From: Candidatus Hermodarchaeota archaeon
Lineage (GTDB): Archaea; Asgardarchaeota; Heimdallarchaeia; Hodarchaeales; Hodarchaeaceae
Direction: 5' to 3'
Length of the DNA: 32,000 nt
Assembly: GCA_048886185.1 (NCBI GenBank)
Contig: JBHLKY010000004.1
Location: forward strand, 30,001 to 62,000
Part shown: one piece after another, positions 1 to 18,731 of the stretch
How the letters are laid out: each line of letters begins with the position of its first letter
Numbering within the stretch: the first letter of the stretch is position 1
Position numbers and translations under genes: made by a program
The notes under the pieces: generated by a model
Told to the model about the DNA's origin: nothing
Seen by the model: only the letters and a program-made list of their open reading frames with translations
The model's database searches: none

Positions 1-698
1 ATGCTTGTTAATAGCGCAGGATCATAATGGGATTTTCCTTGAGTGGATGTACTGCTCCCAATTAAAATCCCTGATTCTGTTTGGTAAATACAAACATTAT
101 AGATGTTGATATTAGGCAGGATAATTTCACCAGTTAACGTTTCTATTAACCAGTCGAATGCTTGATAAAAATTCGTTCCTGTCTTTGCTGACATATGAAA
201 TATATTAATAGCGCGGAAATTCCCCTTTGTTTGAATATCGTAAAGATCAAAATTTTTAAGTAATGTAACGTAGGGATCTACTCCTGATATATCCGCTTTA
301 TTCGCTGCTATAAGAAGAACAGCGTTCTCGGGAATATTTGGCATTGCATTATAGAGAGCAGCTCTACTAGATGGAAAACTGCTAGGATTAGAACAATCTA
401 CCACAAATACTACAGCAGTGGATAATTTCAGATAATCTCCCCAAATCATGTGAAATGACTCTTGCCCACCTAGATCAAATGCTTGAAATTGAACATTTCG
501 ATATACAAACGAGTCAACATTCAATCCCATTGTTCTTACTGAACTCCCATAGAATTCCCCTGTTCTTAAGCGATGAAGAATGGTAGTTTTTCCTGCATAT
601 GCTTCTCCTATGAAGGTAATTAGTTCTTGCTGAGGAGGAGTTGCAGTAGCTTTCTCTTCCTTCGAATGACGTCTAAAGAGTCTCTTTAACAGGGAAAT
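1..698 (-). CDS. Arf-family small GTPase fused to a C-terminal longin/roadblock-like domain (3' end outside the window; not in the ORF track)
   Basis: Manual translation: (I/M)SLLKRLFRRHSKEEK...ITFIGEAYAGKTT (G1), VRTMGLNV (G2, Arf-like TIGFNV), FDLGGQESFHMIW (G3), ANKAD (G4), MSAKTG (G5). It continues LTGEIILPNINIYNVCIYQTESGILIG...DPALLTS to the window edge. Start placed at ATT 698-696, 7 nt after GGAGGA; the exact start codon is uncertain. Confidence 0.9.
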   Translation of the reverse strand, partial: MSLLKRLFRRHSKEEKATATPPQQELITFIGEAYAGKTTILHRLRTGEFYGSSVRTMGLNVDSFVYRNVQFQAFDLGGQESFHMIWGDYLKLSTAVVFVVDCSNPSSFPSSRAALYNAMPNIPENAVLLIAANKADISGVDPYVTLLKNFDLYDIQTKGNFRAINIFHMSAKTGTNFYQAFDWLIETLTGEIILPNINIYNVCIYQTESGILIGSSTSTQGKSHYDPALLTS

Positions 699-765
699 GG
701 GTAAATCCTCCAGTATTTGGTGGATTTATTCAATTGAGCTTTTGATACTTTCAACTATAAGAATC

Positions 766-787
766 TACCTCGAGAATTACCTCGAGA
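766..787. repeat. Tandem 10-bp repeat TACCTCGAGA x2, each copy containing the CTCGAG palindrome, upstream of the Arf gene
   Basis: Copies at 766-775 and 778-787. Confidence 0.5.
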
Positions 788-1330
788 GTTATTCTTCATT
801 CACAAAATAGTTAAAATAAGGTTCGATTAATTATTTCTAAAATGATAAGCAAATTTAAATAGAATAATCAAATTTAGTTTTGACTTTACTATTAGGATAT
901 ATTCTCTCATCGCTTTATGTGGTTAGGAATAGTTCCTGCTTTTTTGGTTACTACTGGAACAAATTTTACTTTGATTGTGGATACCAAAATAAGAATACAA
1001 AAAAACCTGCTATAAGGTCTGAAAACTTATCTACTTCATTTTTATTTCCTGTTTTCTAATAATTTCTAAAAATTCTAAGTAAATCAAGAAATTGACTAAA
1101 ATTCATAATACTTGTATTTCAAATTTGTTTTCATTGAAACATAAAACTCTTGAAATTTTCCTTTACTGGCATTAAACAAAAAAAAATACTTTACATTTGT
1201 GATTAAGTCTCCCCATAACATCAAAATCCTCCATCCTCAATTCTTCGTTCTGTATTTATCGAGTGTAGGGGATTGGATATCTAATTAACAATCATCTTAA
1301 AAACGAAAGGGATTTAAAGCTTTTTTCATG

Positions 1331-1388
1331 TGCGGAGAAATTCTCTAGAACATCGCTTCTGCCTGTATTTGCGGAAATATTCTCTAGA
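1331..1388. promoter_or_regulatory. 19-bp direct repeat pair, possible regulator binding sites
   Basis: TGCGGAGAAATTCTCTAGA (1331-1349) and TGCGGAAATATTCTCTAGA (1370-1388): 17/19 identical, 39-bp period, in the divergent intergenic region between the Arf and PAS genes. Confidence 0.5.
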
Positions 1389-1617
1389 TAGCCTTTTGAG
1401 TTTGAAAATAACAATATTTTATTATCTAGATCGGTTTATTCTTTTGCACTCTCAGGAAATAAGAATGTTTAGAATAATCCGTTAAAAAGGTGATTCAGCG
1501 AGGCGAACAGTTTTAAGGAACAATGAATTATACCCTCAAGAGCAGGTAATTAATTTTATAGACCAGATTATCGGAAATATTACCTCTTCGGGAGTATTTG
1601 TACTAGACCGTAAAACA

Positions 1618-4314: not shown

Positions 4315-5769
4315 TTAAGTTAAACCTCTTTCTTTTTGGGCAATAATTAACCATTCAGCTTTCATACCATTTGGAGACAGATTTTGTCTGCCTTTTAGTA
4401 AACGTGGTGAGATTATTTCATCATAACCAAATTCTCTGATACTCAATCCTAATTCTTCGAATATTTCGCAAAAAATTTTATGACAAGGAACGGGGTATCC
4501 TAAGACTGTTGGATTTCCAATAAATAGACCAAAAACTCCATTTTGTTTAAGAGATCGAATAAGCTTCTCGATAATCATGTACATGTCATAAAAATAATTA
4601 TAGATTAGTATGGTGTATTTTCCCACTTGTTTATATTTTGCGAGCTCTATTTTTTCAAGTTTTTCAGCAGTGGATATGAAAATCTCAATGTTTTTTAATT
4701 TATCTCTGATAAAATCAACATCTAAATTCCTTTTAGTACCTAGTTCTCTTCTCGTCAGTTCTCTTACTTTTAAATCATCTACTAGGTTCATCCAGTAGAG
4801 ATCAAGTTTTGTTGATCTAATATACTCTTGTGCATAAATATATGGTGGAGATGTTATAATTAAGTCAACAAATTCTCCATTTAAGGGAAATTCATATGAT
4901 GATACATCTTTACCACCCAAACAGATGATTTTCTTTTTATTTTTTTCTCTACTTCGGATATTATCGATATTCACTTCATATTCATACTCAGGAAATATAT
5001 TCTTCTCTCTAAGATATTCCGTAAGATGTTTCATTTGATTAAAGTATTTTAAGAGTATATTATGGAAAGTATCGTAAGGAATATTAGGATTATCCTTAAC
5101 TTTTACACGCAATTTTTTAATTTGCTTTTCCCTACGTTTTGATTTAAATAATTTTGGTACGTCACGTGCTCCATACGACAGAAAGCGAGAAACATATAAA
5201 GCAGTTATTTTTATCAAGTTTATGAAATCATCTGTATAGTTATCTTCTATAGAAAATATATAACCCCAAATATTTGCTAGAACCTCCTTAAACTCTATAG
5301 GATACCAATGGTCAATATTTTTCCACCTAGGATAGAAAGCTTGATCGTTTCTTTTCATTCTTTCAATAAATTTTGTTATATAAATCGTATTATATTTTAT
5401 ATCCGCTGATCTGTTATCTTCCTTCTCTAAGAATGTATCCAGCTTTATTGGAGTTTTATGAGTTAAATTGAAGGTAATCCGTTGAGTTTTAGCTTTTGTA
5501 AGGAAATTCGTTAATGGATTTATATCGAGACAGATACTGTTATGTCCTAAGCGTAAGGCTTCAATTGCAGTCGAACTACTTCCTGCAAATGGATCTAAAA
5601 TGATTCCATCCTTTTGTTTCAAAAACTTTGAAATAACGTAGTAAGGGACATGGGGAATGAATTTAGCAGGATACGAGTATAGATTATGTGTCAAATAGTT
5701 AACAGGGGGAATTATGTGACTTAAATTTTGTTTAAACGAATAATTTCTTATTTTCATATCCTTATTCAA
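4315..5769 (-). CDS. DNA amino-methyltransferase, alpha-type motif order (probably N4-cytosine)
   Basis: HNLYSYPAKFIP, then motif I DPFAGSSST near the N-terminus, catalytic TSPPY later, and a C-terminal FIGNPTV..VPCH segment. Confidence 0.85.
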   Translation of the reverse strand: MNKDMKIRNYSFKQNLSHIIPPVNYLTHNLYSYPAKFIPHVPYYVISKFLKQKDGIILDPFAGSSSTAIEALRLGHNSICLDINPLTNFLTKAKTQRITFNLTHKTPIKLDTFLEKEDNRSADIKYNTIYITKFIERMKRNDQAFYPRWKNIDHWYPIEFKEVLANIWGYIFSIEDNYTDDFINLIKITALYVSRFLSYGARDVPKLFKSKRREKQIKKLRVKVKDNPNIPYDTFHNILLKYFNQMKHLTEYLREKNIFPEYEYEVNIDNIRSREKNKKKIICLGGKDVSSYEFPLNGEFVDLIITSPPYIYAQEYIRSTKLDLYWMNLVDDLKVRELTRRELGTKRNLDVDFIRDKLKNIEIFISTAEKLEKIELAKYKQVGKYTILIYNYFYDMYMIIEKLIRSLKQNGVFGLFIGNPTVLGYPVPCHKIFCEIFEELGLSIREFGYDEIISPRLLKGRQNLSPNGMKAEWLIIAQKERGLT

Positions 5770-5832
5770 GAAGTTGTAGCTCCTGCTGTAATTATTTCTC
5801 TAATTAAGACCATAATATCTTCTGATGACTAT

Positions 5833-6876
5833 TTAAAAGAAATTTTGCAGGGTCTTAGTCTTGAGGTTGTTTTTCTTTAGTTGATGATGATAATCCTCTA
5901 AAAAAGGAATATGAAGATTTAATCTTTCTAAAGTTTCTCTAAGGATTTTTAATTCTATTTTTTCCTTCTTTGTGAATTTAAAATGTCCTTTCTTCTGGAG
6001 ATTAATGTATTCGATACTCTGACAATATTGGGATAAAAGAATTATAGCTAATTCCATGTGAGGAATAAGTACTGGAGGAGTATATTGGTAAGACTCCTCT
6101 AGAATTCTTTTTTTAATTAATCCCTTTCTTGGGAACTTTTCATATCCAAATCCTTTTTTATTCAATAATCTGGCAGCAGCTAAGGTCGTTCCTGTACCTA
6201 GAAACGGATCAAGAACAGTTGCAGCCCCTTCTACTAGTTTAATACATTTATAAGGCAGTTCTATTGGGAAGGGGGCTTCATGACCTTTCTTTATTGTTAT
6301 TCCTGTGGTTTTTAAATATGGAACTAACCAGATATTACCAGCATCTCTTAAATCTTCTTCAGAATATCTTCCAATATTTGATTTATCCACATAAGGAATC
6401 CCTATTTCTTTTGGATTCATATAATAGGTATTTTTATCTTTAATCAGAACAAAAATATTTTCCCACAGGTTATTTAATCGTCTTTCCCCACCACTTGGTG
6501 TATAATGCCCTTTGCCAAGGAAAGACTTAATCCAAATGATTGTTTGCAGACGATAAAATCCAGTTTTCACTGCAAGTTTTACAACTTCCTCACTAATCCC
6601 TTGATCTGGAGCAGCATCCCCAATATTCAAAAAGAAGATTCCTCTTGGATTTAGAACGCGATGACACTCTTTCCATACCCTTGTTAAAAAGCTGAAGTAT
6701 TCTTTTTTCGGTTTCTTATCATTATATTTTTCTCCTGAATCATCAGAGTAACATTTATTACGATTATACGGAGGAGAGGTAACAATAACATCTATTGAAT
6801 TATCTCTTATTTCATTCATCTTTTCCGAACTTTTATAGAACACAACTTGATTTCCAAAAACTTCACGATCTTCCAT
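5833..6876 (-). CDS. DNA amino-methyltransferase, beta class (m4C or m6A), with a C-terminal extension ending in a PIP-box-like motif
   Basis: IDVIVTSPPY first, then FFLNIGD, IIWIK, HEAPFP and VLDPFLGTGTT. A roughly 90-aa tail ends KTKTLQNFF-stop. Confidence 0.9.
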   Translation of the reverse strand: MEDREVFGNQVVFYKSSEKMNEIRDNSIDVIVTSPPYNRNKCYSDDSGEKYNDKKPKKEYFSFLTRVWKECHRVLNPRGIFFLNIGDAAPDQGISEEVVKLAVKTGFYRLQTIIWIKSFLGKGHYTPSGGERRLNNLWENIFVLIKDKNTYYMNPKEIGIPYVDKSNIGRYSEEDLRDAGNIWLVPYLKTTGITIKKGHEAPFPIELPYKCIKLVEGAATVLDPFLGTGTTLAAARLLNKKGFGYEKFPRKGLIKKRILEESYQYTPPVLIPHMELAIILLSQYCQSIEYINLQKKGHFKFTKKEKIELKILRETLERLNLHIPFLEDYHHQLKKNNLKTKTLQNFF

Positions 6877-7228
6877 TAACTTTCACTAGGTCAATTCCCT
6901 ATATACTTGAGACGGTTTATCCTTGATAAAAAGCTCTTTATTTTTAATTATTACGTTTAAAAATCCCTTTTTAAGTCTGTTTTTATTACTATATAAAATT
7001 GGTTGCTCTCTGCAAATCTAAATTGGTAATGATTGGGCTTATTTAAAATATTAGTTTGATATGTTATTTCTCCCTTAAAAAAAGAAAAAATTAATAATTC
7101 TCTTTTTTTTTAGGCTAATTCGCACGATTTCCGCTTTATCTCACATCAAAGGGCTATAAAAGGTGTCAATTTATGTGATAACTGAGCGAAATACTAGCTA
7201 TCGTGAAAAGAAAATATGCGTGAAAAAG

Positions 7229-7753
7229 ATGAACGAATCTCAAGAAGAAATTGAATTAAACGCAAAGAAAATAAGCGAACTATCACCTTTTGACAGAAAA
7301 CTTGAAGTTACTTTTGTTGTAATGGAAAAAGGTGAACCACGACAGATAACTTCTCGAAAAACAAATGAGGAACATACTTTAGCAGACATCAAAATTGGAG
7401 ATCCAACAGGAACAATCATCTTAACCCTTTGGGATGATACAATAGATCAAGTCACCGAAGGACATACTTACAAAGTTTCAAACGGATATATAAATGTCTT
7501 TCAAGAACATATGCGACTAGCACTTGGAAAATGGGGCTCTCTTGAAGAGACAGATGAAGAAATTACGTTAGATTCTGTAGATGAGGACAACGATCGATCT
7601 AAAGAAGTTCATGAAGATACTCGTAGAAGAAGGAGACCCCGTCGAAGCTATGGTGGATATAACCGTGGTGATCGTGGTGATCGGGGTGATCGGGGTGGTT
7701 ATTCTTCAGGTGACAGGGGTCGATCACGAGATCGAGAGAGAACTCGCTGGTAA
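7229..7753 (+). CDS. ssb: Single-OB-fold ssDNA-binding protein (SSB/RPA) with Arg/Gly/Asp-rich C-terminal tail
   Basis: OB motifs KISELSP, LADIKIGDPTGTIILTLWDD, VSNGYINVF and LALGKWG. The ORF track starts at 7163; ATG 7229 (MNESQEE), after GCGTGA, is the more plausible start. Confidence 0.85.
   Translation: MNESQEEIELNAKKISELSPFDRKLEVTFVVMEKGEPRQITSRKTNEEHTLADIKIGDPTGTIILTLWDDTIDQVTEGHTYKVSNGYINVFQEHMRLALGKWGSLEETDEEITLDSVDEDNDRSKEVHEDTRRRRRPRRSYGGYNRGDRGDRGDRGGYSSGDRGRSRDRERTRW
7664..7696 (+). repeat. 9-bp coding tandem repeat CG(T/G)GGTGAT x3 plus a partial copy (RGD-RGD-RGD-RG)
   Basis: Read directly in the ssb tail. Confidence 0.85.
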
Positions 7754-7769
7754 ATTTCCTGTCTACATT

Positions 7770-7828
7770 AGAGTTGGTGTCTTTAATACGATTCTATAGT
7801 CCAACTCTTTATTTTTCTTATTTTTTCT
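7770..7828 (+). terminator. Hairpin plus T-rich tract after ssb
   Basis: AGAGTTGG (7770-7777) pairs with CCAACTCT (7801-7808) and is followed by TTATTTTTCTTATTTTTTCT. Confidence 0.5.
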
Positions 7829-8276
7829 TAATTCCTCTTATGCCTTGATTTAGAAACTCATTACTTCTATTAGAAGTATATGGGGCATTTCAGCAAAAGT
7901 GTTTTACCCCCATCTTGATAATTTCCCAGAACATGAATCCCCCTCTTTACCGCAGTTAAAGAACATTAGAGAGTAATTTCTTCTATTCAATATGTCTTGT
8001 TAATTATAATACTCTAACTTTACGTTTTTTACTTATCTTCGTAGGAAAAGATTGTTTTTTTATAGGTAAATGATTTCCTATAAGGAATGATAATTTAGTA
8101 TCTTCAAAGCGATACATATTTCTTGAGGATTATTTCAATCGCATTTCAAGGAGTTTTTAACAATTTAATTTTTGAAGCTTGCTGAAAAGTAATTAAAGAA
8201 GAGAATATTCTGCAAATAGAATAGATTGGCAAAATCATTATATTAGAATTATGGATTAAGAAAATCTAGGTAGAAT

Positions 8277-9620
8277 GTGGTCGCAATGAAAAATATAATT
8301 GGCATTAGGTTGGAAAACAAAAATATTTGGGAGAAAAGGGTTCCCATTGTCCCCAATGATATGAAGGATTTAATAGATAAAGAATCTATCGATTTTATTG
8401 TACAATCTTCCTCAATTCGCGCTTTCAAAGATGAAGAATATCGTGAAATAGGAGTTAAGGTAATTCCTGACATTGAAGAAGCGAATGTGATTTTTGCTAT
8501 AAAGGAAATCCCACTTCCAGTCATTGAGGCTCAGGACTCCCCAAAAACCTATATATTCTTTTCCCATACAATAAAGGGTCAGAAACATAATATGTCAATG
8601 TTAAAAAAGATAATGGAGACGAAATCTAATCTTATTGATTATGAGAAAGTGGTAAACGAGAAGGGGCTTCGTCTTATCTTTTTTGGGAATTGGGCTGGTT
8701 TAGCTGGGATGATAGAGATACTTTGGGGTTTTGGTCAAAGAGTAAAATTTAATAATAATATAGAAAACCCATTTTTAAGAATAAAACATACTTGGGAATA
8801 TAAAAACTTAGATAGTGCAAGAAAGGCTGTATCAGAGGTTGGTAAAGACATAATTGAAAAAGGATTACCAAAAGAACTCGTTCCTCTTGTGATTGGTTTT
8901 GCTGGTTATGGAAATGTTTCGACTGGTGCTCAATCTATGTTAGATTTCCTCCCAATCGAGGAGATTGAACCAACGGAATTGAAAGACTTTTATAATCGCG
9001 GAGAATTCTCCAGAAATTGCATTTATAAAGTTGTATTTAAAGAGAAGCATATGGTCGATCCAATTGAAGGTGAGTTTAACTTACAGCATTACTATAATCA
9101 TGGCAAGACTAAATATCAAGGTGTCTTCAACCAATATTTCCCTTACTTATCAATTCTTGTTAACGCAATTTATTGGAGTGACAAGTACCCCAGATTAATA
9201 ACCAAGAAATTTCTTAAAGCAGAATTCGAATCTGGTAAAGATATTCGATGTCAAATTATAGGTGACATTTCTTGCGATATTGAAGGAGGTATTGAGCCTA
9301 CGTTAAAGACGACAAAACCTGATAATCCAGTGTTTATCTATAATCCCTTTTCTGATGAAGCAACTGTTGGTTTAAAAGGAATAGGAATGGCGATTATGGC
9401 TGTAGATAATCTTCCGTGTGAATTGCCCGTGGAATCTTCTACTAGCTTCAGTATGACTTTAAAGCCGTTTGTGTCTATAATTGCTAAAGCTGATTACTCA
9501 AAACCGTTCTCTGAATTGGATCTACCCCCAGTCTTAAAGAATGCAGTGATTGTATATCAAGGTGAACTGACACCTAACTATAAATATATTGAAGAATTTG
9601 ATGCATTTAAGGGTGCTTAG
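8277..9620 (+). CDS. Lysine-ketoglutarate reductase / saccharopine dehydrogenase (Lys-forming) type; homologous to the N-terminal half of AASS
   Basis: WEKRVPIVP, AIKEIP, FFSHTIKGQ, LIDYEKVV, FFGNWAGLAG, GYGNVSTGA, GDISCD and MAVDNLPCELP match LKR/Lys1-family motifs. Confidence 0.9.
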   Translation: MVAMKNIIGIRLENKNIWEKRVPIVPNDMKDLIDKESIDFIVQSSSIRAFKDEEYREIGVKVIPDIEEANVIFAIKEIPLPVIEAQDSPKTYIFFSHTIKGQKHNMSMLKKIMETKSNLIDYEKVVNEKGLRLIFFGNWAGLAGMIEILWGFGQRVKFNNNIENPFLRIKHTWEYKNLDSARKAVSEVGKDIIEKGLPKELVPLVIGFAGYGNVSTGAQSMLDFLPIEEIEPTELKDFYNRGEFSRNCIYKVVFKEKHMVDPIEGEFNLQHYYNHGKTKYQGVFNQYFPYLSILVNAIYWSDKYPRLITKKFLKAEFESGKDIRCQIIGDISCDIEGGIEPTLKTTKPDNPVFIYNPFSDEATVGLKGIGMAIMAVDNLPCELPVESSTSFSMTLKPFVSIIAKADYSKPFSELDLPPVLKNAVIVYQGELTPNYKYIEEFDAFKGA

Positions 9621-9674
9621 TAGCCTATTAGTCATAAGAAGGAATTTTTAGTAGTTTTTATAATTAAGGAGTAG

Positions 9675-11012
9675 TTGGAATTGAAAAAAGTCTTGATTCT
9701 TGGAGCAGGAATGGTTGCTGGACCTCCTGTGACTTATTTATTAGACCATGGGTATCAAGTTACGGTAGCAAGTCGTACTAAGAGTAAAGCTAACAAAATT
9801 ATTGGGGATCATCCTAACGGTATAGCTAAGGAATTTGATATCACAAAAGCGTTAGGCACTGAGTTAGATGAGCTAATGAAAGAGTGTGATTTAGCTGTTA
9901 GTTTACTCCCCTTTATCTATCATGTTCAGGTAGCTAAATCTTGCATTAAGTATAAAAAACACATGGTTACAACATCTTATGTAAGTGCGGAAATGAGGGA
10001 ACTGGATAAAGAAGCTAGAGAAGCAGGAATCATCATTCTTAATGAAATTGGTGTAGATCCTGGTATCGACCATATGTCAGCAAAGAAGATAATTGATGAT
10101 GTTCATGAACGAGGAGGTAAAATAACCTCTTTTAAATCCTACTGTGGTGGGTTACCTGCTCCAGATGCCAATACAAATCCGTGGGGGTATAAACTATCTT
10201 GGTCTCCTCGTGGTGTTATCCTAGCAGGAAGAAATGCTGCAAAGTATAAAGAAGACGGGAAGATAATAGAAATTCTAGGTGAAGACCTTTTCGATCAACA
10301 TTATCCCTATCCAGTTGAAGGATTAGAAGATGACTATGAAGCGTATCCTAATCGTGATTCTCTACCCTATATAGATGTGTACAGCATTCCTGAGACGAAA
10401 ACAATGTTTAGAGGTACTCTTCGGAATACTGGTTGGTGTCGTGCCCTTAAAAAGGTCGCTGAAGTAGGTTATATGGATTTGGAGGAACTAGAGTTTCCCT
10501 CGGGGTTCACCTATAACAAACTTACTAATAAACTCCTAGGAGTTTCATTAGATGCAGATTCCAAACAAGAATTTATTAAAAAATTAAACTTAGACCATGA
10601 AGATGATATTGTCAAAAGATTTGAGTGGATGGAGTTATTCTCGGATGATGTTGAGGTACCTTCAAAGAAAATTTCCCCACTTGATGCTCTATGCCATCAA
10701 TGGGAAAAACACTTGCAATATGCCCCAGGTGAAAGAGACATGCTCATAATGGTTCATGAATTTGAGTATGAATTACCAGAAGGCAAAGAAAGGCATATAA
10801 GTACAATGATTGACTTTGGAATTGAGCATGGCCCCACCTCCATGTCCCGAACGGTTGGATTACCTGCAGCAATCGGTGTTCGCATGATCTTAGAGGGAAA
10901 AATAAAGGATAAAGGTGTTGTGATTCCTGTTGCTAAAAATATTTATGAACCAGTCTTAAAAGAGTTAAAGGAACTCGAAATTGGATTTTCTGAGAGAATA
11001 GAAAAAATTTGA
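9675..11012 (+). CDS. Saccharopine dehydrogenase (Glu-forming; Lys9 / AASS C-terminal type)
   Basis: VLILGAGMV, TTSYVS, NEIGVDPGIDHMSA, SYCGGLPAP, NPWGYKLSWSPRG, YPNRDS, RGTLR and MSRTVGLPAAI. TTG start. Confidence 0.93.
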   Translation: MELKKVLILGAGMVAGPPVTYLLDHGYQVTVASRTKSKANKIIGDHPNGIAKEFDITKALGTELDELMKECDLAVSLLPFIYHVQVAKSCIKYKKHMVTTSYVSAEMRELDKEAREAGIIILNEIGVDPGIDHMSAKKIIDDVHERGGKITSFKSYCGGLPAPDANTNPWGYKLSWSPRGVILAGRNAAKYKEDGKIIEILGEDLFDQHYPYPVEGLEDDYEAYPNRDSLPYIDVYSIPETKTMFRGTLRNTGWCRALKKVAEVGYMDLEELEFPSGFTYNKLTNKLLGVSLDADSKQEFIKKLNLDHEDDIVKRFEWMELFSDDVEVPSKKISPLDALCHQWEKHLQYAPGERDMLIMVHEFEYELPEGKERHISTMIDFGIEHGPTSMSRTVGLPAAIGVRMILEGKIKDKGVVIPVAKNIYEPVLKELKELEIGFSERIEKI

Positions 11013-11079
11013 GATGATAAATAAAAAGATTGAGGATTAATGGAGGGAGTTCGTATTTTTTCCTTAAGAGAAGATAATT

Positions 11080-12123
11080 ATGAAAATTAATTTTCCTCAA
11101 ACTAGATATCAGGGAAGTAAATTAAAATTACTAAATTGGTTTCATTCCATTTTTAAAGAGATTAAATTTAATACAGTCTTGGATGCGTTTGGGGGTACTG
11201 GTGCTGTTAGTTATATGTTTAAAAGAATGGGGAAGTTTGTTACATATAACGATCTATTAACTTCTAATTGGTATATTGGTAAAGCTCTAATAGAAAATAA
11301 TTCGATTAAATTCGATCCGATAAAATTAGGATCGTTATTTGAGAAAAAAAATGGTTACACTTATCGTGTGATTATCCAAGACCAGTTTAAAGACATTTAC
11401 TATACTGATGAGGAAAATATCTTACTAGATATTGTGATACAGAATATTCATTGTTTGAAAGACCAGTATGAGAAAGCCCTTTGTTTTTTTGCGCTCTTTC
11501 AAGCCTGTATTCAAAAGCGTCCATTTAATCTTTTCCATAGAAAAAATCTTTATCTTCGATTGACAGATGTAAAGCGAAGTTTCGGAAATAAGAAAACATG
11601 GGATACTCCATTCCCAGAATTGATGTTAAGAGCATTAAAAGAAGGGAATCAAGTAATCTTTAATAATTCTAAAACTCATAGAGCGATAAACTTTCCTATT
11701 CTGGATGTATCGATTCCTGATGAAGGATATGAGCTAGTTTATCTTGATCCTCCTTATTTATCTTCTCAAGGGATTGGTGTAGATTATAGAGATTATTACC
11801 ATTTTCTTGAAGGAATATGCCATTATAATGAATGGGAGGATCTGATTGACTATAATTCCAAACACAAAAGATTGAAGATGATTGAAAATGAATGGAATGA
11901 TCCGAAACAGATCTACAATGCTTTTGAAAAAACTTTGTCTAAATTTCAAGATTATATAATTGTAATTTCTTATCGAGATCCTGGAATACCAAGTATTGAT
12001 GAATTGACGAATATTTTCCTCAGTTACAAAGAAAAAGTATCCTCACATGTTAAGGATTACAAATATGTCCTTACATCGAAGAAGCAAAGGGTGAAAGAGA
12101 TCTTACTTATCTCAAAAAAGTAG
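11080..12123 (+). CDS. Alpha-class (D12 / Dam-FokI-NlaIII-like) N6-adenine DNA methyltransferase
   Basis: RYQGSKLKL (motif X), DAFGGTGAV (motif I), YNDLL, YLDPPY (motif IV), YYHFLEG and ISY. Confidence 0.9.
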   Translation: MKINFPQTRYQGSKLKLLNWFHSIFKEIKFNTVLDAFGGTGAVSYMFKRMGKFVTYNDLLTSNWYIGKALIENNSIKFDPIKLGSLFEKKNGYTYRVIIQDQFKDIYYTDEENILLDIVIQNIHCLKDQYEKALCFFALFQACIQKRPFNLFHRKNLYLRLTDVKRSFGNKKTWDTPFPELMLRALKEGNQVIFNNSKTHRAINFPILDVSIPDEGYELVYLDPPYLSSQGIGVDYRDYYHFLEGICHYNEWEDLIDYNSKHKRLKMIENEWNDPKQIYNAFEKTLSKFQDYIIVISYRDPGIPSIDELTNIFLSYKEKVSSHVKDYKYVLTSKKQRVKEILLISKK

Positions 12124-12149
12124 AGGAATAGAGAAATGTTTGTATCGCT

Positions 12150-12905
12150 TTACTTTAAATCGCAATAGGTTGTAAATACCTTTGCCTCTTCTGAAAAACC
12201 TAGCTTTCTGTACAGCTTTTTTGCAGCCATATTACTATCTTCCACCCATAAGAAGATATTTGATATATCATATCGGAGGAATAGTTCTTTGCATAAAACA
12301 CCTACAGTTTTCAACGCATATCCCTGCCTCCTTTCTAATACATTAGTTTCTACTCCTCGTAGTATGGCGAATGAAAAAGATGATTTTATGAATATATATG
12401 GAGCCGCTGCAAAGCATACAAGCTTGTTCCCCTTAAAAGAACCAAATCCTAATCCCCCATCTAAAGGACGGTATCGCTTTGGGAGAGGATGTTTATAAGA
12501 TGGAATTTGAATAATTTGATCATCTATAGGTTCTAGGTTTAATAAATGATTTTTAGAAAGATTAAATGTGAGATAGGTATTATAAATATTAGCAGGTTTA
12601 TTCGTTTCAACATTACGGAAATTATCAAAACGTATACGAATATCATCCCAATAATGTTTTTCGAACACTAATACAATATTGGTATTAAACCACCTAATTT
12701 TGTTCGTAAATTCCCATATATTTTCTCCAAAAAGAGTATATTTGTTTTCATAGCGGCAGATATATCGCAATGGATCAATGGAAAAAATAAGATCTGTTTT
12801 TTCGTTCCTGTGATAAAGAAACCATAATATATAACATATTACGCTAAGAGGTTGTTGTTGAATGTGTTTAACAAAAAGTTGTAAATTCTTAACGGCTGAT
12901 TTCAA
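12150..12905 (-). CDS. GNAT-family acetyltransferase (C-terminal GNAT domain)
   Basis: GVETNVLERRQGYA (acetyl-CoA motif A) and VEDSNMAAKKLYRKLGF. Confidence 0.8.
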   Translation of the reverse strand: MKSAVKNLQLFVKHIQQQPLSVICYILWFLYHRNEKTDLIFSIDPLRYICRYENKYTLFGENIWEFTNKIRWFNTNIVLVFEKHYWDDIRIRFDNFRNVETNKPANIYNTYLTFNLSKNHLLNLEPIDDQIIQIPSYKHPLPKRYRPLDGGLGFGSFKGNKLVCFAAAPYIFIKSSFSFAILRGVETNVLERRQGYALKTVGVLCKELFLRYDISNIFLWVEDSNMAAKKLYRKLGFSEEAKVFTTYCDLK

Positions 12906-12985
12906 AAACCAGGAGCCTCCTCAGCTCCATAGAAATAATGAGAGTTCATCTTACCATTAATACTATCACTAAATTAAATCTTTAT

Positions 12986-13873
12986 TTAACCATCGAATAC
13001 TTGTTGGTTTGATAAAGGATGGCCTAAGTCATATGATTTTCTAAGATGTTCTAAAGAGACGTGAGTGTAAAGCTGGGTTGTTGAAAGAGAAGCATGCCCT
13101 AAAAGTTCTTGAATGATACGAATATCAACAGCATTTGATAATAAATGAGTTGCAAATGCATGACGGAGTGTATGAGGTGTTACATCTCTTTCCAGTAAAT
13201 CTGCAGCTTCTTTATACTTCTTAACAATTCGCTGCACTGATCTTGGGGTTAATCGGTTACCTGAACGATTCAAGATTAATGCAGGGTCTTGTGTGTTTTC
13301 CCGGGTCGTTATATAATCTTCTAAAATCTTAATTATTCCATTAGGGAGCGGAATTATCCTATCTTTCCCTCCTTTTCCACCTACTATGTGAATTATTTTT
13401 TCTTTCAGATCTATTTGTTCAATGTTGAGATTTGTTAATTCTGATACTCGCATACCTGTACCATATAATAAATAGAGAATAGCTTTGTCCCTTGGATTGT
13501 CCGGAGTACCTAATAGCTGCATTGTTTCTTCAATAGTAATTGTTTTAGGTAAAGATTTCGGAATCTTCGGAGATTCGATATTTTCAGTCGGATTCGTTGT
13601 AATAACTCCTTCCTTTTTTAGGAATTTAAAAAAAGATTTTAATGCACATATTTTTCGATGTAAACTTCTTGCTGCATACTCTTTATCTCGTTTAAGATGC
13701 AGAAAAAACCGTCGTAAATCCATTGTTGTTATTTCTTCAAACGATTTACCATTATTAAACCGTTCAAACATTTTTAAATCATAAGAATATTCACGAATGG
13801 TTTTTGGGGAGTACCCTTTTTCAATCTCCAATGTAACCAGAAAGTCGTCAATTAACATTTGAATATCGTCCAC
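12986..13873 (-). CDS. xerA: XerA/XerC/D-family tyrosine recombinase
   Basis: N-terminal SAM-like core-binding domain (EKGYSPKTIREY). Catalytic residues TGMRVSEL, GKGGKDR, HTLRHAF, LLGHASLSTTQLYTH (R-K-H-R-H-Y). Confidence 0.93.
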   Translation of the reverse strand: MDDIQMLIDDFLVTLEIEKGYSPKTIREYSYDLKMFERFNNGKSFEEITTMDLRRFFLHLKRDKEYAARSLHRKICALKSFFKFLKKEGVITTNPTENIESPKIPKSLPKTITIEETMQLLGTPDNPRDKAILYLLYGTGMRVSELTNLNIEQIDLKEKIIHIVGGKGGKDRIIPLPNGIIKILEDYITTRENTQDPALILNRSGNRLTPRSVQRIVKKYKEAADLLERDVTPHTLRHAFATHLLSNAVDIRIIQELLGHASLSTTQLYTHVSLEHLRKSYDLGHPLSNQQVFDG

Positions 13874-16847: not shown

Positions 16848-17834
16848 TTGGTTTGTTTAGCAAAAGGTGTAGCTCTATTGAATAAAAATGACCAAAAAAA
16901 TATTTTATTCGACAAGCTAGCTAATGAAAACCAGCCTCTTGTTGGTCAATCCTCCATAAAAGGGAGTAATCTTCTGGTCATTCTCGCTGATGAGGGGGGC
17001 CTTCCAGTTTACACAAGATCAATTCGTATAAATCAGTCAGGAGAAATCATTAAACGTCAAAGTCCAGAAATCAGTCCAAAAAACGAAAAAATTCTCTTGA
17101 TGTCTGGATTCTTAGAAGCCATTATACAACTGAAAGACATTATTCGACCTACTTTGCTAGATTTAACTGTAGAACAAAACAAACCACTTTATGTTGAGTA
17201 TGCTAAGGCTCCAAATGGTATTTCATTAGTGTCTTTAGCTACTTCCCCTGAATTTCAACAATTACCAATGAATTTGCTTAGTCATTATGCTCCGTTACAA
17301 ACAAATTTAGATAATCCTGAATATGCTGGATTAGATGAAAATTTCGAAAAAGCAATAGAAGGGCCATTAGGAGAAGATGCAGCCATATATTGGAAAGTCT
17401 TAAGTAGAATTAAATCCGATTTGGCTGAGTTTGTCTCTTTCATTCTAGTTTACGATGAAGATGGTAATTATTTGTTTTCAACAGCAAGAAGTCATCATCA
17501 AAGTGATATCACCGATCCTTTATTGGATTCTATTTCCAAATATATTAGACAAGAATATTTACTGCAAAAATACCAAGATAATCTGTCATTAATAGGAGCC
17601 AAAAGGCTAGAGAATTCAGTTATTTGGCATTTTAAATGCTTTGATAAAATATTTGTTTTCTTCACTTACATTATCCCAGAAATATATGGAAAATTCGATA
17701 TATTGAAAGAAGAAATGATTACTTTTATAGCAAACAATCTAGAGAAGTTTATTATCGCCTCAAAAAAGCACTCTGAGTCCTTATACAAAACAAGTGAAGA
17801 TATTAAAAGCACTAGATTTATCTTTCTCTCGTAA
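16848..17834 (+). CDS. Longin/roadblock-like domain protein, possibly two tandem domains
   Basis: LLVILADEGGLPVYTR...LLMSGFLEAIIQL resembles the Asgard longin pattern. A second unit reads FILVYDEDGNYLFS...DPLLDSISKYI. The TTG of LNKND after AAGGTG may be the true start. Confidence 0.6.
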   Translation: MVCLAKGVALLNKNDQKNILFDKLANENQPLVGQSSIKGSNLLVILADEGGLPVYTRSIRINQSGEIIKRQSPEISPKNEKILLMSGFLEAIIQLKDIIRPTLLDLTVEQNKPLYVEYAKAPNGISLVSLATSPEFQQLPMNLLSHYAPLQTNLDNPEYAGLDENFEKAIEGPLGEDAAIYWKVLSRIKSDLAEFVSFILVYDEDGNYLFSTARSHHQSDITDPLLDSISKYIRQEYLLQKYQDNLSLIGAKRLENSVIWHFKCFDKIFVFFTYIIPEIYGKFDILKEEMITFIANNLEKFIIASKKHSESLYKTSEDIKSTRFIFLS

Positions 17835-17939: not shown

Positions 17940-18731
17940 ATGTCTAAAAAAAAAGTTGAGAAGCTTATAATTGAACATGCGAAGAGTGGGAGGGCATCCT
18001 GTAGGACATGTCGAAAACGATTAGAGAAAGATGAGGTTAGAGTCGGTATACCATTTACTTTTACCAGACCTAATGGGGAGGAAATTTCTTCTTTTCGCTA
18101 CTATCATGTGATTTGTGTTCCTTATGATCGAATAAAGTCAGTATTAGAAGTTTTTCCATCTTTATCTATTATAGATAAAGAAAAAAAGGAGAAATTATTT
18201 GAATCTCTGAAAAAAAGAGAAAAGGACGAAATGGGGAAACTACAAGAAAAGAAATCTGAATTGAAGAAACCTTTTCTTGAACCTTCAAAAAGCTCTAGAG
18301 GATCTTGTCGAATTTGTGAAAAAAAGATAGAAAAGGGAATTCTTAGGGTAGCTGAACCCTCACAAATTGAATTAGATGATGGAAGAAAGTTTTTCTCGCA
18401 TAAATATTTTCATATGACATGTTATATTGAATCATCTAGAGATAGACCACTTTTGTTAAAAGACTTAATCGAAACTTCCCTTGCGCAAGGGAGTATTTCT
18501 CAAGAAGAAGCAGAGAAATTGGACAAAGACCTTCAAGCAGATTCTGAAGCTGATGAGAAAGCTGCTTCAGTATTAGCAGTTATTTCTGATGAACCGATCG
18601 ATATTATGACTCTTGAAAAGCTTGCAAAAGAGAAAGGGGTCCCTTTCAATCACGTAAAAAAGGCTCTTGAAAAGGGATTATTACAGGGAGTCTTCTTTGA
18701 ATCTTCCCCAGGAATGATTCAGAAGTTATAA
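17940..18731 (+). CDS. Tandem PARP-type zinc-finger protein with C-terminal winged-helix-like domain
   Basis: Finger 1: EHAKSGRASC21RTC24...RYYH56VIC59. Finger 2: EPSKSSRGSC123RIC126EKKIEKG..R...KYFH158MTC161. Tail VLAVIS...LEKLAKEKGVPFNHVKKALEKGLLQGVFFESSPG. Confidence 0.9.
   Translation: MSKKKVEKLIIEHAKSGRASCRTCRKRLEKDEVRVGIPFTFTRPNGEEISSFRYYHVICVPYDRIKSVLEVFPSLSIIDKEKKEKLFESLKKREKDEMGKLQEKKSELKKPFLEPSKSSRGSCRICEKKIEKGILRVAEPSQIELDDGRKFFSHKYFHMTCYIESSRDRPLLLKDLIETSLAQGSISQEEAEKLDKDLQADSEADEKAASVLAVISDEPIDIMTLEKLAKEKGVPFNHVKKALEKGLLQGVFFESSPGMIQKL

What the first reader, a model, noticed from the sequence alone, without database searches (positions are those of the whole stretch)
1..698. 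Arf-like GTPase fused to a C-terminal longin/roadblock-like domain
Seen: intact G1-G5 motifs with Arf-type switch sequences (TMGLNV, DLGGQ...W). The N-terminal basic amphipathic helix SLLKRLFRR lacks Gly2. After the G domain comes IYNVCIYQTESGILIG...DPALLTS, resembling the first strands and the DxxLxSG-type helix of Asgard longin domains. Known: Rag/Gtr GTPases have a G domain plus C-terminal roadblock architecture, and longin domains act in eukaryotic Rab/Arf GEFs. Inference: a membrane-binding Arf carrying its own regulatory or dimerisation module.
Basis: partly seen in the sequence, partly recalled or inferred. Interest (0 to 1): 0.6.

Follow-up and report, generated by a model that had tools for sequence, protein, structure and literature searches.

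The report
Arf-type GTPase fused to longin domain
A complete, conserved gene of a Hodarchaeales (Asgard) archaeon encodes an Arf-family GTPase with a short membrane-type N-terminal helix and a built-in C-terminal longin-fold domain; this is a clear new example of a GTPase-longin fusion type already reported from Asgard archaea.

Summary
The gene lies on the minus strand from window 698 to 1 and runs 328 nt past the window edge, giving a complete 341-aa ORF. Residues 26-189 are an intact Arf-family G domain (Pfam Arf 105 bits). The best solved relative is the Asgard HodArfR1.

Residues 199-335 match no Pfam family. Two AlphaFold runs fold them as beta-beta-alpha-beta-beta-beta-alpha-alpha. The best structural matches are longin domains: VAMP7 Z 11.2, Sec22 10.8, synbindin 10.1. 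Roadblock domains score lower (Z 7-7.6).

The N-terminal SLLKRLFRR is a conserved basic amphipathic segment on a variable tether.

There is no canonical start codon. ATT, 8 nt after GGAGG, sits exactly where relatives have ATG.

The gene is single-copy in 17 of 21 genomes of its genus and is nearly absent elsewhere. It has no operon partner.

Function is inferred: a membrane-tethered switch whose longin domain serves as a dimerisation or partner platform.

GTPase-longin/roadblock fusions in Asgard archaea are already published (Liu 2020, Tran 2024, Zhu 2025). I therefore class this as a new member of a known kind. First readers of this scan noted the same architecture in two other genomes.

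The parts
1..698 (-). The in-window part of the Arf-longin gene (residues 1-232 of 341). The gene continues to G000:C4:29673, 328 nt before window position 1.
   Evidence: complete 341-aa ORF P0002 = L001:1176-2198 minus strand.
707..711 (-). Shine-Dalgarno-like GGAGG, 8 nt upstream of the start codon.
   Evidence: the GGAGG + 8 nt + start-codon spacing is kept in all 7 loci of the ATH-start subclade. The ATG/TTG loci carry weaker GGAG-like sites at a similar distance.
696..698 (-). Probable non-canonical start codon ATT.
   Evidence: no ATG, GTG or TTG lies between the upstream stop and the P-loop. ATT, ATC or ATA in 7 loci sits at the codon where 9 other loci have ATG or TTG. In L007 and L019 a TAA directly precedes it.
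669..695 (-). Residues 2-10, SLLKRLFRR: a basic amphipathic segment and putative membrane-binding helix.
   Evidence: muH 0.73, H 0.31, charge +4; 78% mean pairwise identity against 24% for the tether that follows. AF2 confidence here is low.
624..668 (-). Residues 11-25: a variable, low-complexity tether between the helix and the G domain.
   Evidence: 24% identity; pLDDT below 50.
132..623 (-). Residues 26-189: the Arf-family G domain. P-loop at 585-608, switch I Thr56 at 531-533, DLGGQ at 462-476, NKAD at 291-302, SAK at 183-191.
   Evidence: Pfam Arf 5e-30 over residues 27-187; best PDB sequence hit 8oul_A, an Asgard Arf GTPase. Foldseek 8ouk (HodArfR1-GTP), TM by target 0.79; invariant G31, G36, K37, T56, D75, G78, Q79, N133, K134, D136, S170.
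105..131 (-). Residues 190-198, GEIILPNIN: the conserved interdomain linker.
   Evidence: 75% identity. G190, I193 and P195 nearly invariant; pLDDT 74-81.
1..104 (-). Residues 199-232: strands beta1 and beta2 and the start of helix alpha1 of the longin-fold domain. The rest (residues 233-341) lies outside the window at G000:C4:29676-30002.
   Evidence: topology; structural matches to longin domains; the domain is found almost only downstream of Arf G domains.

Best explanation
This is a complete, functional, single-copy gene of a Hodarchaeales archaeon. It encodes a two-domain small GTPase with five parts.

1. A conserved 9-residue basic amphipathic helix, translated from an ATT start codon.
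2. A variable tether of about 15 residues.
3. An ArfR-type (Arf-family) G domain with all catalytic and nucleotide-binding residues.
4. A short conserved linker.
5. A C-terminal longin-fold domain.

Shown here: the gene structure, the family of the G domain, the fold of the C-terminal domain, the conservation and the taxonomic range.

Inferred: the protein acts as a GTP/GDP switch held at the membrane by its N-terminal helix, as was shown experimentally for the single-domain Asgard ArfRs. The fused longin domain is its built-in protein-protein platform. Most likely it makes the GTPase a dimer, as the C-terminal roadblock domain does in Rag/Gtr and in LokiRagO, and/or it docks another longin/roadblock protein. 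The nucleotide state would then be read out or regulated through that platform.
For: Gene structure:
- The ORF is complete.
- The start is supported by a conserved GGAGG-8 nt-ATH/ATG arrangement across 16 loci.

G domain:
- Pfam Arf 104.6 bits, against Ras 52.5 and SRPRB 27.
- All top-60 PDB sequence hits are Arf or Arl proteins, led by Asgard HodArfR1.
- Foldseek matches 8ouk with TM 0.79 by target.
- The G1-G5 residues and the catalytic Gln79 are invariant in 35 sequences.

C-terminal domain:
- Two AF2 runs give the same beta-beta-alpha-beta-beta-beta-alpha-alpha order.
- VIA-align over 48,161 chains puts VAMP7 (Z 11.2), Sec22 (10.8), synbindin (10.1), a Lokiarchaeota roadblock-longin protein (9.6) and the SR-alpha SRX domain (9.5, rmsd 2.5 A) on top. 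Roadblock domains score only 7-7.6 and align over fewer residues.
- The best Foldseek hit is the Ykt6 longin domain, E 8e-4.

Selection:
- AH 78%, G domain 78%, linker 75% and longin 72% mean pairwise identity, against 24% for the tether.
- Single copy in 17 of 21 genomes of the genus.
- A profile of the C-terminal domain finds only 22 representatives among 1.84 billion. All ten of those scanned with Pfam carry the match after an Arf G domain.

Precedent:
- HodArfR1 and GerdArfR1 need their N-terminal amphipathic helix to bind membranes and also lack Gly2 (bioRxiv 10.1101/2024.02.28.582541).
- Asgard Rag-like GTPases with fused roadblock/longin domains are modelled as dimers joined through those domains (PMC10933270).
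- Whole Rag/Gtr and LokiRagO chains align over 312-330 columns of the full-length model.
Against: - No experiment or tool result here shows membrane binding, GTP hydrolysis or oligomerisation.
- The N-terminal helix is short (9-11 residues) and is modelled with pLDDT below 50.
- Its hydrophobic moment is matched or beaten by 6.7% of composition-preserving shuffles.
- The 15-residue variable tether is longer than in Arf1 or HodArfR1. The helix may therefore be a constitutive anchor and not coupled to the interswitch toggle.
- Helix alpha1 and strand beta3 of the longin model have low confidence, pLDDT about 50.
- Rag/Gtr chains superpose on the full model only with rmsd 12-15 A, so the domain arrangement is not shown to be Rag-like.
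- The genome has no second copy that could serve as a Rag-style heterodimer partner.
- There is no operon partner.
Confidence: 0.6

Rival explanations
1. The longin domain acts in cis on its own G domain. It would be an intramolecular lock, GAP or GEF surface, or a GTP-state sensor. This would be the single-chain version of SRX binding SR-beta-GTP, MglB acting on MglA, or longin GEF platforms (TRAPP, Mon1-Ccz1) acting on Rabs.
For: - The interdomain linker is short and highly conserved: 75% identity, G190, I193 and P195 nearly invariant, pLDDT 74-81. This suggests a fixed orientation and not a flexible tether.
- SRX domains are among the best structural matches and have the lowest rmsd (6frk_y Z 9.5 at 2.5 A; 2go5 Z 9.1; 1nrj Z 7.5).
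- MglB and Mon1-Ccz1 longin/roadblock domains also match.
- The C-terminal domain almost never occurs without an Arf G domain.
Against: - No interface could be examined, because model coordinates and PAE are not available.
- The GP motif in the beta1-beta2 loop that marks the GAP-type longins (PMC12290439) is absent. The loop reads T-E/D-S-G-I/L.
- No Arg is invariant across orthologues and paralogues.
- The solved G-domain + C-terminal roadblock proteins (Rag/Gtr, LokiRagO) are hetero- or homo-oligomers by their PDB entry titles. That they assemble through the C-terminal domain is from my own knowledge and from modelled Asgard dimers, not from a structure examined here.
Confidence: 0.25
2. 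The protein is a member of the Rag/Gtr family with a C-terminal roadblock domain. This is how such Asgard fusions are often labelled.
For: - Foldseek of the full-length model aligns whole Rag/Gtr1 and LokiRagO chains over 312-330 columns with E about 1e-12.
- Roadblock proteins (MglB, LAMTOR2, MK-D1 roadblock) appear among the Foldseek hits with probability 0.99 or higher.
Against: - Pfam Gtr1_RagA gives no hit at E<=1, while Arf scores 104.6 bits.
- The 60 best PDB sequence matches are all Arf or Arl proteins.
- The topology has no N-terminal helix and has two C-terminal helices, which is longin and not roadblock.
- Longins score Z 9-11 over 112-125 residues; roadblocks score Z 7-7.6 over 88-101 residues.
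- The N-terminal amphipathic helix is an Arf-family feature and not a Rag feature.
- Rag superpositions have rmsd 12-15 A.
Confidence: 0.08
3. The gene is a decaying pseudogene or is not translated, because it lacks an ATG, GTG or TTG start before the P-loop.
For: Between the upstream in-frame stop and Met57 there is no canonical start codon. Automatic gene calls disagree on the start: 315 aa for this genome's call (P0003) and various N-termini for the relatives.
Against: - The frame is intact, and residues 2-10 are 78% conserved.
- ATT, ATC or ATA lies at the homologous position of ATG, 8 nt after GGAGG, in all 7 members of the subclade. In two of them TAA directly precedes it.
- The whole protein is 63-88% identical across about 40 orthologues with no stops.
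Confidence: 0.03

Closest known systems
Asgard ArfR GTPases HodArfR1 and GerdArfR1 (PDB 8OUK, 8OUL, 8OUM, 8OUN; Vargova et al.)
   Same: - Arf-family G domain: best PDB sequence hit (8oul_A, E 1.4e-22) and best Foldseek hit (8ouk).
- Short N-terminal basic amphipathic helix without Gly2.
- Same lineage (Hodarchaeales).
   Different: - Those proteins are single-domain, about 184 aa. This one adds a roughly 140-residue longin domain and has a longer, variable tether after the helix.
- In a quick G-domain tree it falls in a separate clade from this genome's HodArfR1-like paralogue.
- Vargova et al. set aside ArfRs with extra domains when screening for amphipathic helices.
Rag/Gtr GTPases and Lokiarchaeota LokiRagO (PDB 8YL2, 6S6A, 3R7W)
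   Same: - The order G domain then a C-terminal domain of the roadblock/longin superfold.
- Whole chains align over 312-330 columns.
   Different: - The G domain is Arf-type, not Gtr1/RagA-type.
- The C-terminal domain has longin, not roadblock, topology.
- This protein has an N-terminal amphipathic helix.
- Superposition is poor, rmsd 12-15 A.
- Dimerisation is not shown for this protein.
GTPase-longin/roadblock fusions of Ca. Prometheoarchaeum MK-D1 (Tran et al. 2024, PMC10933270) and the 'Rag family GTPases with fused longin' of Liu et al.
   Same: - The same design principle: an Arf/Rag-like small GTPase fused covalently to a longin or roadblock domain.
- 26 of 74 MK-D1 GTPases are of this kind.
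   Different: - A different lineage (Hodarchaeales against Lokiarchaeia), and no detectable sequence relation of the longin part outside its own small family (22 hits).
- The combination of N-terminal amphipathic helix, Arf-type G domain and C-terminal longin was not specifically described in the papers I could read.
SR-beta with the SRX domain of SR-alpha (eukaryotic SRP receptor)
   Same: - A membrane-anchored Arf-family GTPase paired with a longin-like domain.
- SRX is among the best structural matches (Z 9.5, rmsd 2.5 A).
- The Pfam SRPRB model is just passed (27 bits against a cut-off of 25).
   Different: - In the SRP receptor the two parts are separate polypeptides. SR-beta has a transmembrane anchor, and SRX is fused to an FtsY-type NG domain.
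- Arf scores far above SRPRB for this protein.
SNARE and TRAPP longin domains (VAMP7, Sec22, Ykt6, synbindin, sedlin)
   Same: The fold and the order of secondary-structure elements (Z 9.4-11.2).
   Different: - Sequence identity is 7-13% in the aligned rows, and Pfam Longin does not match.
- No SNARE motif follows the domain, and the domain is C-terminal to a GTPase.

Membership tests
Arf family (Arf/Arl/Sar/ArfR) | The G domain matches the Arf profile better than other small-GTPase profiles. | tested here: met
   Arf 104.6 bits (cut-off 22.3), against Ras 52.5, Roc 51.1 and SRPRB 27, with no Gtr1_RagA hit; the top 60 PDB hits are all Arf or Arl proteins.
Arf family (Arf/Arl/Sar/ArfR) | Intact G1-G5 motifs with Arf-type switch II (DxGGQ...W..Y) and the catalytic Gln. 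| tested here: met
   GEAYAGKT, T56, DLGGQ with Q79, W86, Y89, NKAD and SAK are present, and the key residues are invariant in 35 sequences. Positions of the aromatic triad read L59/F74/Y89 in place of F/W/Y.
Arf family (Arf/Arl/Sar/ArfR) | An N-terminal amphipathic helix that binds membrane. | tested here: inconclusive
   At sequence level residues 2-10 have muH 0.73 and charge +4 and are 78% conserved. However, the AF2 pLDDT is below 50, 6.7% of shuffles reach the same moment, and membrane binding was not tested.
Arf family (Arf/Arl/Sar/ArfR) | An interswitch toggle coupled to release of the helix. | not testable with these tools
   This needs GDP- and GTP-bound structures. The interswitch length matches that of Arl1 in the HMMER alignment.
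Arf family (Arf/Arl/Sar/ArfR) | Gly2 for N-myristoylation (classical Arf/Arl only). | tested here: not met
   Residue 2 is Ser in all orthologues. The same holds for the Asgard ArfRs, so this does not exclude ArfR membership.
Longin domain (fold level) | The order beta1-beta2-alpha1-beta3-beta4-beta5-alpha2-alpha3 with no N-terminal helix. | tested here: met
   Searches give the same elements in the full-length and the domain-only models.
Longin domain (fold level) | Structural similarity to solved longin domains above background. | tested here: met
   Z 11.2, 10.8 and 10.1 for VAMP7, Sec22 and synbindin; the tool's stated background for a best hit is about 7-8. Ykt6 E 8e-4. SEC22a TM 0.63 and an Asgard sigma-adaptin-like protein TM 0.65.
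Longin domain (Pfam PF13774 and related sequence families) | A sequence match to a curated longin or roadblock profile. | tested here: not met
   no Pfam family for residues 205-341 at E<=1; nothing in NCBIfam beyond the G domain.
Rag/Gtr GTPases | A Gtr1/RagA-type G domain. | tested here: not met
   no PF04670 hit at E<=1.
Rag/Gtr GTPases | A C-terminal roadblock domain with the alpha-beta-beta-alpha-beta-beta-beta order. | tested here: not met
   the topology is longin, and roadblock matches are shorter and lower (Z 7-7.6).
Rag/Gtr GTPases | Obligate dimerisation through the C-terminal domain. | tested here: inconclusive
   The one co-fold job gave no verdict (see Tried and rejected). No second paralogue exists in this genome.
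GAP-type longins (FLCN/SMCR8/Nprl2 class) | A GP motif in the beta1-beta2 loop (PMC12290439). | tested here: not met
   the loop is T-E/D-S-G-I/L with invariant G210 and no Pro.
GAP-type longins (FLCN/SMCR8/Nprl2 class) | A catalytic arginine finger. | tested here: inconclusive
   R273, R292 and R306 are conserved in orthologues but are replaced, mostly by Lys, in the 38-40% identical paralogues. Their positions relative to a GTPase could not be examined.
SR-beta / SRX pair | An SR-beta-type G domain with a transmembrane anchor, and an SRX partner fused to FtsY-NG. | tested here: not met
   SRPRB scores 27 bits against Arf 104.6. The N-terminus is an amphipathic helix and not a transmembrane segment. 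The longin domain ends the protein, and no NG domain follows.

The most novel reading that the evidence does not exclude
The fusion may preserve, or re-create, an ancestral in-cis arrangement of an Arf-family GTPase with a longin-fold partner. Eukaryotic in-trans pairs could have arisen from such an arrangement by gene fission. Examples are SR-beta with the SRX domain of SR-alpha, or Arf1 with the longin-like zeta-COP and sigma-adaptin subunits. On this reading the Hodarchaeales protein would be a one-chain proto-receptor or proto-coat nucleator at the membrane.
Probability: 0.06. Interest if true: 0.8.

Novelty: new member of a known kind. Interest (0 to 1): 0.4.

Why it matters
[quoted passage not shown] In eukaryotes, Arf-family GTPases and longin/roadblock platforms are core parts of membrane trafficking, the SRP receptor and nutrient signalling. 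A conserved single-chain protein that joins an Arf-type switch, a membrane-type helix and a longin domain gives a compact, expressible test case for how GTPase-longin partnerships worked before eukaryotes. It is not a surprise to the field, because fusions of small GTPases with longin or roadblock domains are already catalogued in Asgard genomes. Its value is as a well-defined candidate family, with complete sequence, boundaries, start codon and taxonomic range, for biochemical and structural work. The conserved ATT/ATC/ATA start is also a useful warning for annotation: automatic calls for this family truncate or extend the N-terminal helix.

Tried and rejected
- **Homodimer co-fold.** Two copies of alignment A2 (the longin domain) gave no verdict, score 0.03 against a mark of 0.42. 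This counts neither for nor against dimerisation.
- **Expression.** The search of sequencing runs listed no RNA holder. Only sediment DNA metagenomes that may be the source hold the stretch.
- **SD-sequestering hairpin.** I tested whether the conserved TCCACC (window 719-724) pairs with the GGAGG. The RNAalifold consensus has only 4 pairs, -0.9 kcal/mol and no compensatory changes. The single-sequence fold has z -1.2. Rejected as unsupported.
- **Rag-style heterodimer partner.** The A2 profile finds only this one gene in the genome.
- **Relation to other long Arf-like ORFs of this genome** (C17, C6). hhalign probabilities are 38% and 5%. The ESM-Atlas feature search for the C6 protein scores 0.82 or less. 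No relation is shown.
- **Sequence families for the C-terminal domain.** Pfam and NCBIfam find nothing.
- **The 917-nt upstream spacer.** Rfam and a tRNA scan find nothing.
- **Literature gaps.** Supplements of PMC11914678 are not held. No paper was found for the PDB entry of the Lokiarchaeota roadblock-longin protein or for LokiRagO.
- **Co-fold with the 16848-17834 protein.**
- **Phylogeny with named reference sequences.** A tree including Sar1, SR-beta and Rag could not be built because no tool supplies those sequences. The quick tree uses only sequences found here and is unrooted.

Full report
**Location and gene structure**

The window is G000:C4:30001-62000 of a 4.84-Mb, 75-contig genome that is 96% complete. 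The feature is on the minus strand.

On the contig the frame continues 109 codons beyond window position 1, to a stop at C4:29673. The product is a complete 341-residue protein (P0002).

**Start codon**

Between the in-frame upstream stop and the first ATG (Met57, which lies after the P-loop) there is no ATG, GTG or TTG. An ATT at window 696-698 lies 8 nt downstream of GGAGG (707-711).

I compared the same position in 15 related loci plus this one:
- Seven loci, including the window's own, have ATT, ATC or ATA there, each 8 nt after GGAGG.
- Nine have ATG or TTG at the homologous codon.
- In two loci (L007, L019) a TAA directly precedes the ATH codon, so translation cannot start further upstream.

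The encoded N-terminus is therefore (M)SLLKRLFRR. Automatic gene calls disagree with this and with each other. They give 315 aa for this genome, and TTG-, ATC- or upstream-started versions for relatives.

**G domain**

- Pfam Arf matches residues 27-187 at E 5e-30 and 104.6 bits. Ras scores 52.5 bits, SRPRB scores 27, and Gtr1_RagA gives no hit at E<=1.
- The 60 best PDB sequence matches are all Arf or Arl proteins, led by 8oul_A and 8ouk_A, the Hodarchaeales ArfR of Vargova et al..
- The AF2 model of this part matches HodArfR1-GTP with TM 0.79 by target.
- G1 (GEAYAGKT), Thr56, DLGGQ with Gln79, Trp86, Tyr89, NKAD and SAK are present. Their key residues are invariant across 35 aligned sequences.

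**N-terminus**

Residues 2-10 have a hydrophobic moment of 0.73, mean hydrophobicity 0.31 and charge +4. Leu, Leu, Leu and Phe lie on one face of the helix, and Lys and three Arg on the other.

This segment is 78% identical on average among orthologues. The following 15 residues are only 24% identical. The segment is thus a conserved module on a variable tether.

Three caveats apply:
- The segment is short.
- AF2 gives it low confidence.
- 6.7% of shuffles reach the same moment.

The tether is also longer than in Arf1 or HodArfR1, so coupling of the helix to the interswitch toggle is uncertain.

**C-terminal domain**

Residues 192-341 match no Pfam or NCBIfam model. AF2 was run on the 35-sequence alignment, once full-length (pLDDT 72.5) and once domain-only (pLDDT 68.4). 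Both runs give the same order of elements: beta1, beta2, alpha1, beta3, beta4, beta5, alpha2, alpha3. This is the longin arrangement as described by Tran et al..

An exhaustive VIA-align search of 48,161 chains gave these top matches:

| Match | Z |
|---|---|
| VAMP7 longin | 11.2 |
| Sec22 | 10.8 |
| Synbindin | 10.1 |
| DENND1A longin | 9.8 |
| Lokiarchaeota roadblock-longin protein | 9.6 |
| SR-alpha SRX domain (rmsd 2.5 A) | 9.5 |
| Sedlin | 9.4 |
| Adaptor sigma and mu N-terminal domains | about 9 |
| Roadblock proteins (fewer aligned residues) | 7-7.6 |

Foldseek's best hit is the Ykt6 longin domain at E 8e-4. In the ESM Atlas the nearest shapes are the protein's own family, an Asgard sigma-adaptin-like protein, a Fuz-longin cluster, SEC22a, and two Thorarchaeota clusters of 271-283-aa Arf-family proteins.

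The second refutation criterion, that the region does not fold as longin/roadblock, is therefore also not met. Confidence is moderate and not high, because alpha1 and beta3 have pLDDT near 50.

**Family and distribution**

- A word-indexed search found about 40 full-length orthologues at 63-88% identity. They come from MAGs labelled Hodarchaeales, Hodarchaeota or Heimdallarchaeota, with a few labelled otherwise. It also found three 330-aa paralogue-like proteins at 38-40% identity.
- A profile of the C-terminal domain, searched against 1.84 billion representative proteins, found only 22 hits. All ten of those scanned with Pfam carry the match at about residues 180-330, after an Arf G domain.
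- In species-representative genomes the domain occurs in 16 loci, all from Hodarchaeota- or Heimdallarchaeota-type MAGs.
- It is present as a single copy in 17 of 21 genomes of the window's own genus. The four genomes without it are 71-93% complete.
- It is weakly matched in both genomes of the sister family, and in only 2 of 59 genomes from the other families of the class.
- The window's genome has one copy.

In an unrooted quick tree of G domains the orthologue group is one clade (SH-aLRT 99). It groups (SH-aLRT 89) with the other fusion proteins and with one clade of single-domain proteins. This genome's HodArfR1-like paralogue groups instead with the eukaryotic Arf hits. This tree is only indicative.

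**Genomic context**

Downstream, a convergent FGGY sugar kinase and an aminotransferase are conserved in two closed relatives. Upstream there is a 917-nt AT-rich spacer with no Rfam or tRNA match. It is followed by divergent genes for a PAS-domain protein and an MFS transporter. The gene has no operon partner.

**Mechanism**

What is shown is the anatomy. The rest is inference from named precedents:
- Single-domain Asgard ArfRs need their N-terminal amphipathic helix for membrane localisation and show the Arf-type GDP/GTP rearrangement (bioRxiv 10.1101/2024.02.28.582541).
- Roadblock and longin domains form dimeric platforms for small GTPases. Rag/Gtr and Asgard Rag-like proteins are joined through their C-terminal domains (PMC10933270).

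I therefore favour a membrane-tethered Arf-type switch whose longin domain is a dimerisation or partner-docking platform.

The main rival is regulation in cis, in the manner of SRX with SR-beta or MglB with MglA. The short, conserved interdomain linker favours this rival. The absence of the GP motif of GAP-type longins disfavours a GAP role.

**Comparison with what is known**

The design is published in general form:
- Tran et al. count 26 of 74 MK-D1 GTPases with roadblock or longin fusions. Many of these are Arf-annotated.
- Zhu et al. note longin domains at the N-termini of some Asgard Arfs.
- Vargova et al. set aside ArfRs with flanking domains.

I did not find a description of this particular Hodarchaeales family, which combines an amphipathic helix, an Arf-type G domain and a C-terminal longin domain. 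I class it as a new member of a known kind.

First readers of this scan noted the same architecture in two other genomes and flagged the ATT start. I tested the start-codon claim here, and it holds.

Noticed in passing
window 696-698 (minus strand), plus L004, L005, L007, L008, L009, L019: A whole subclade of this gene family uses ATT, ATC or ATA at the position where the other subclade has ATG or TTG, always 8 nt after GGAGG. Automatic annotations therefore give at least five different N-termini for the same protein.
   Followed up: yes
window 719-725 with 707-711 (minus strand): A conserved ATCCACC lies 7-9 nt upstream of the GGAGG and could pair with it as an anti-SD element. The alignment fold (4 pairs, no covariation) and a z-score of -1.2 do not support a structure.
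   Followed up: yes
G000:C17:28773-29762 (+), G000:C6:87723-88676 (-), G000:C12:46238-47485 (-); outside the window: The same genome holds further Arf-profile GTPases in open frames of 318-416 aa. Their C-terminal extensions look like beta-beta-alpha-beta-beta-beta patterns. One (C6) also starts with a basic amphipathic N-terminus. No significant sequence relation to this longin domain was found, and they were not folded.
   Followed up: partly
G000:C8:7639-8187 and 8200-8760 (+); outside the window: Two single-domain Arf-like genes lie in tandem. The second (187 aa) is clearly the HodArfR1-type paralogue of this genome. The Arf profile matches 66 places in the genome in all; the weaker matches probably belong to other small-GTPase families.
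   Followed up: partly
window 16848-17834 (+): A 328-aa protein with no Pfam match. Its sequence pattern suggests two longin/roadblock-like halves. The ESM-Atlas feature search finds unnamed Asgard clusters at 0.91. The nearest named clusters (Roadblock/LAMTOR2, Fuz_longin_1) score only 0.80-0.82, which is a lead at most. It lies 16 kb from the Arf-longin gene and is not linked to it by any evidence here.
   Followed up: partly
window 17940-18731 (+): A 263-aa protein with two PARP/DNA-ligase-type zinc fingers (Pfam zf-PARP, E 2e-22) and no catalytic domain. This domain is eukaryote-typical.
   Followed up: no
window 4315-13873: A cluster of three DNA methyltransferase genes (two N6_N4_Mtase, one D12 class), an Ssb-like OB-fold protein and a tyrosine recombinase, interspersed with metabolic genes. 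It may be a restriction-modification or integrated-element region. The closed relative CP070695.1 has SufBD and SufC next to the Arf-longin gene instead.
   Followed up: no
window 699-1617: An unusually long (917 nt) AT-rich spacer between the Arf-longin gene and the divergent PAS-domain gene. It has no ORF of note and no Rfam or tRNA match.
   Followed up: partly
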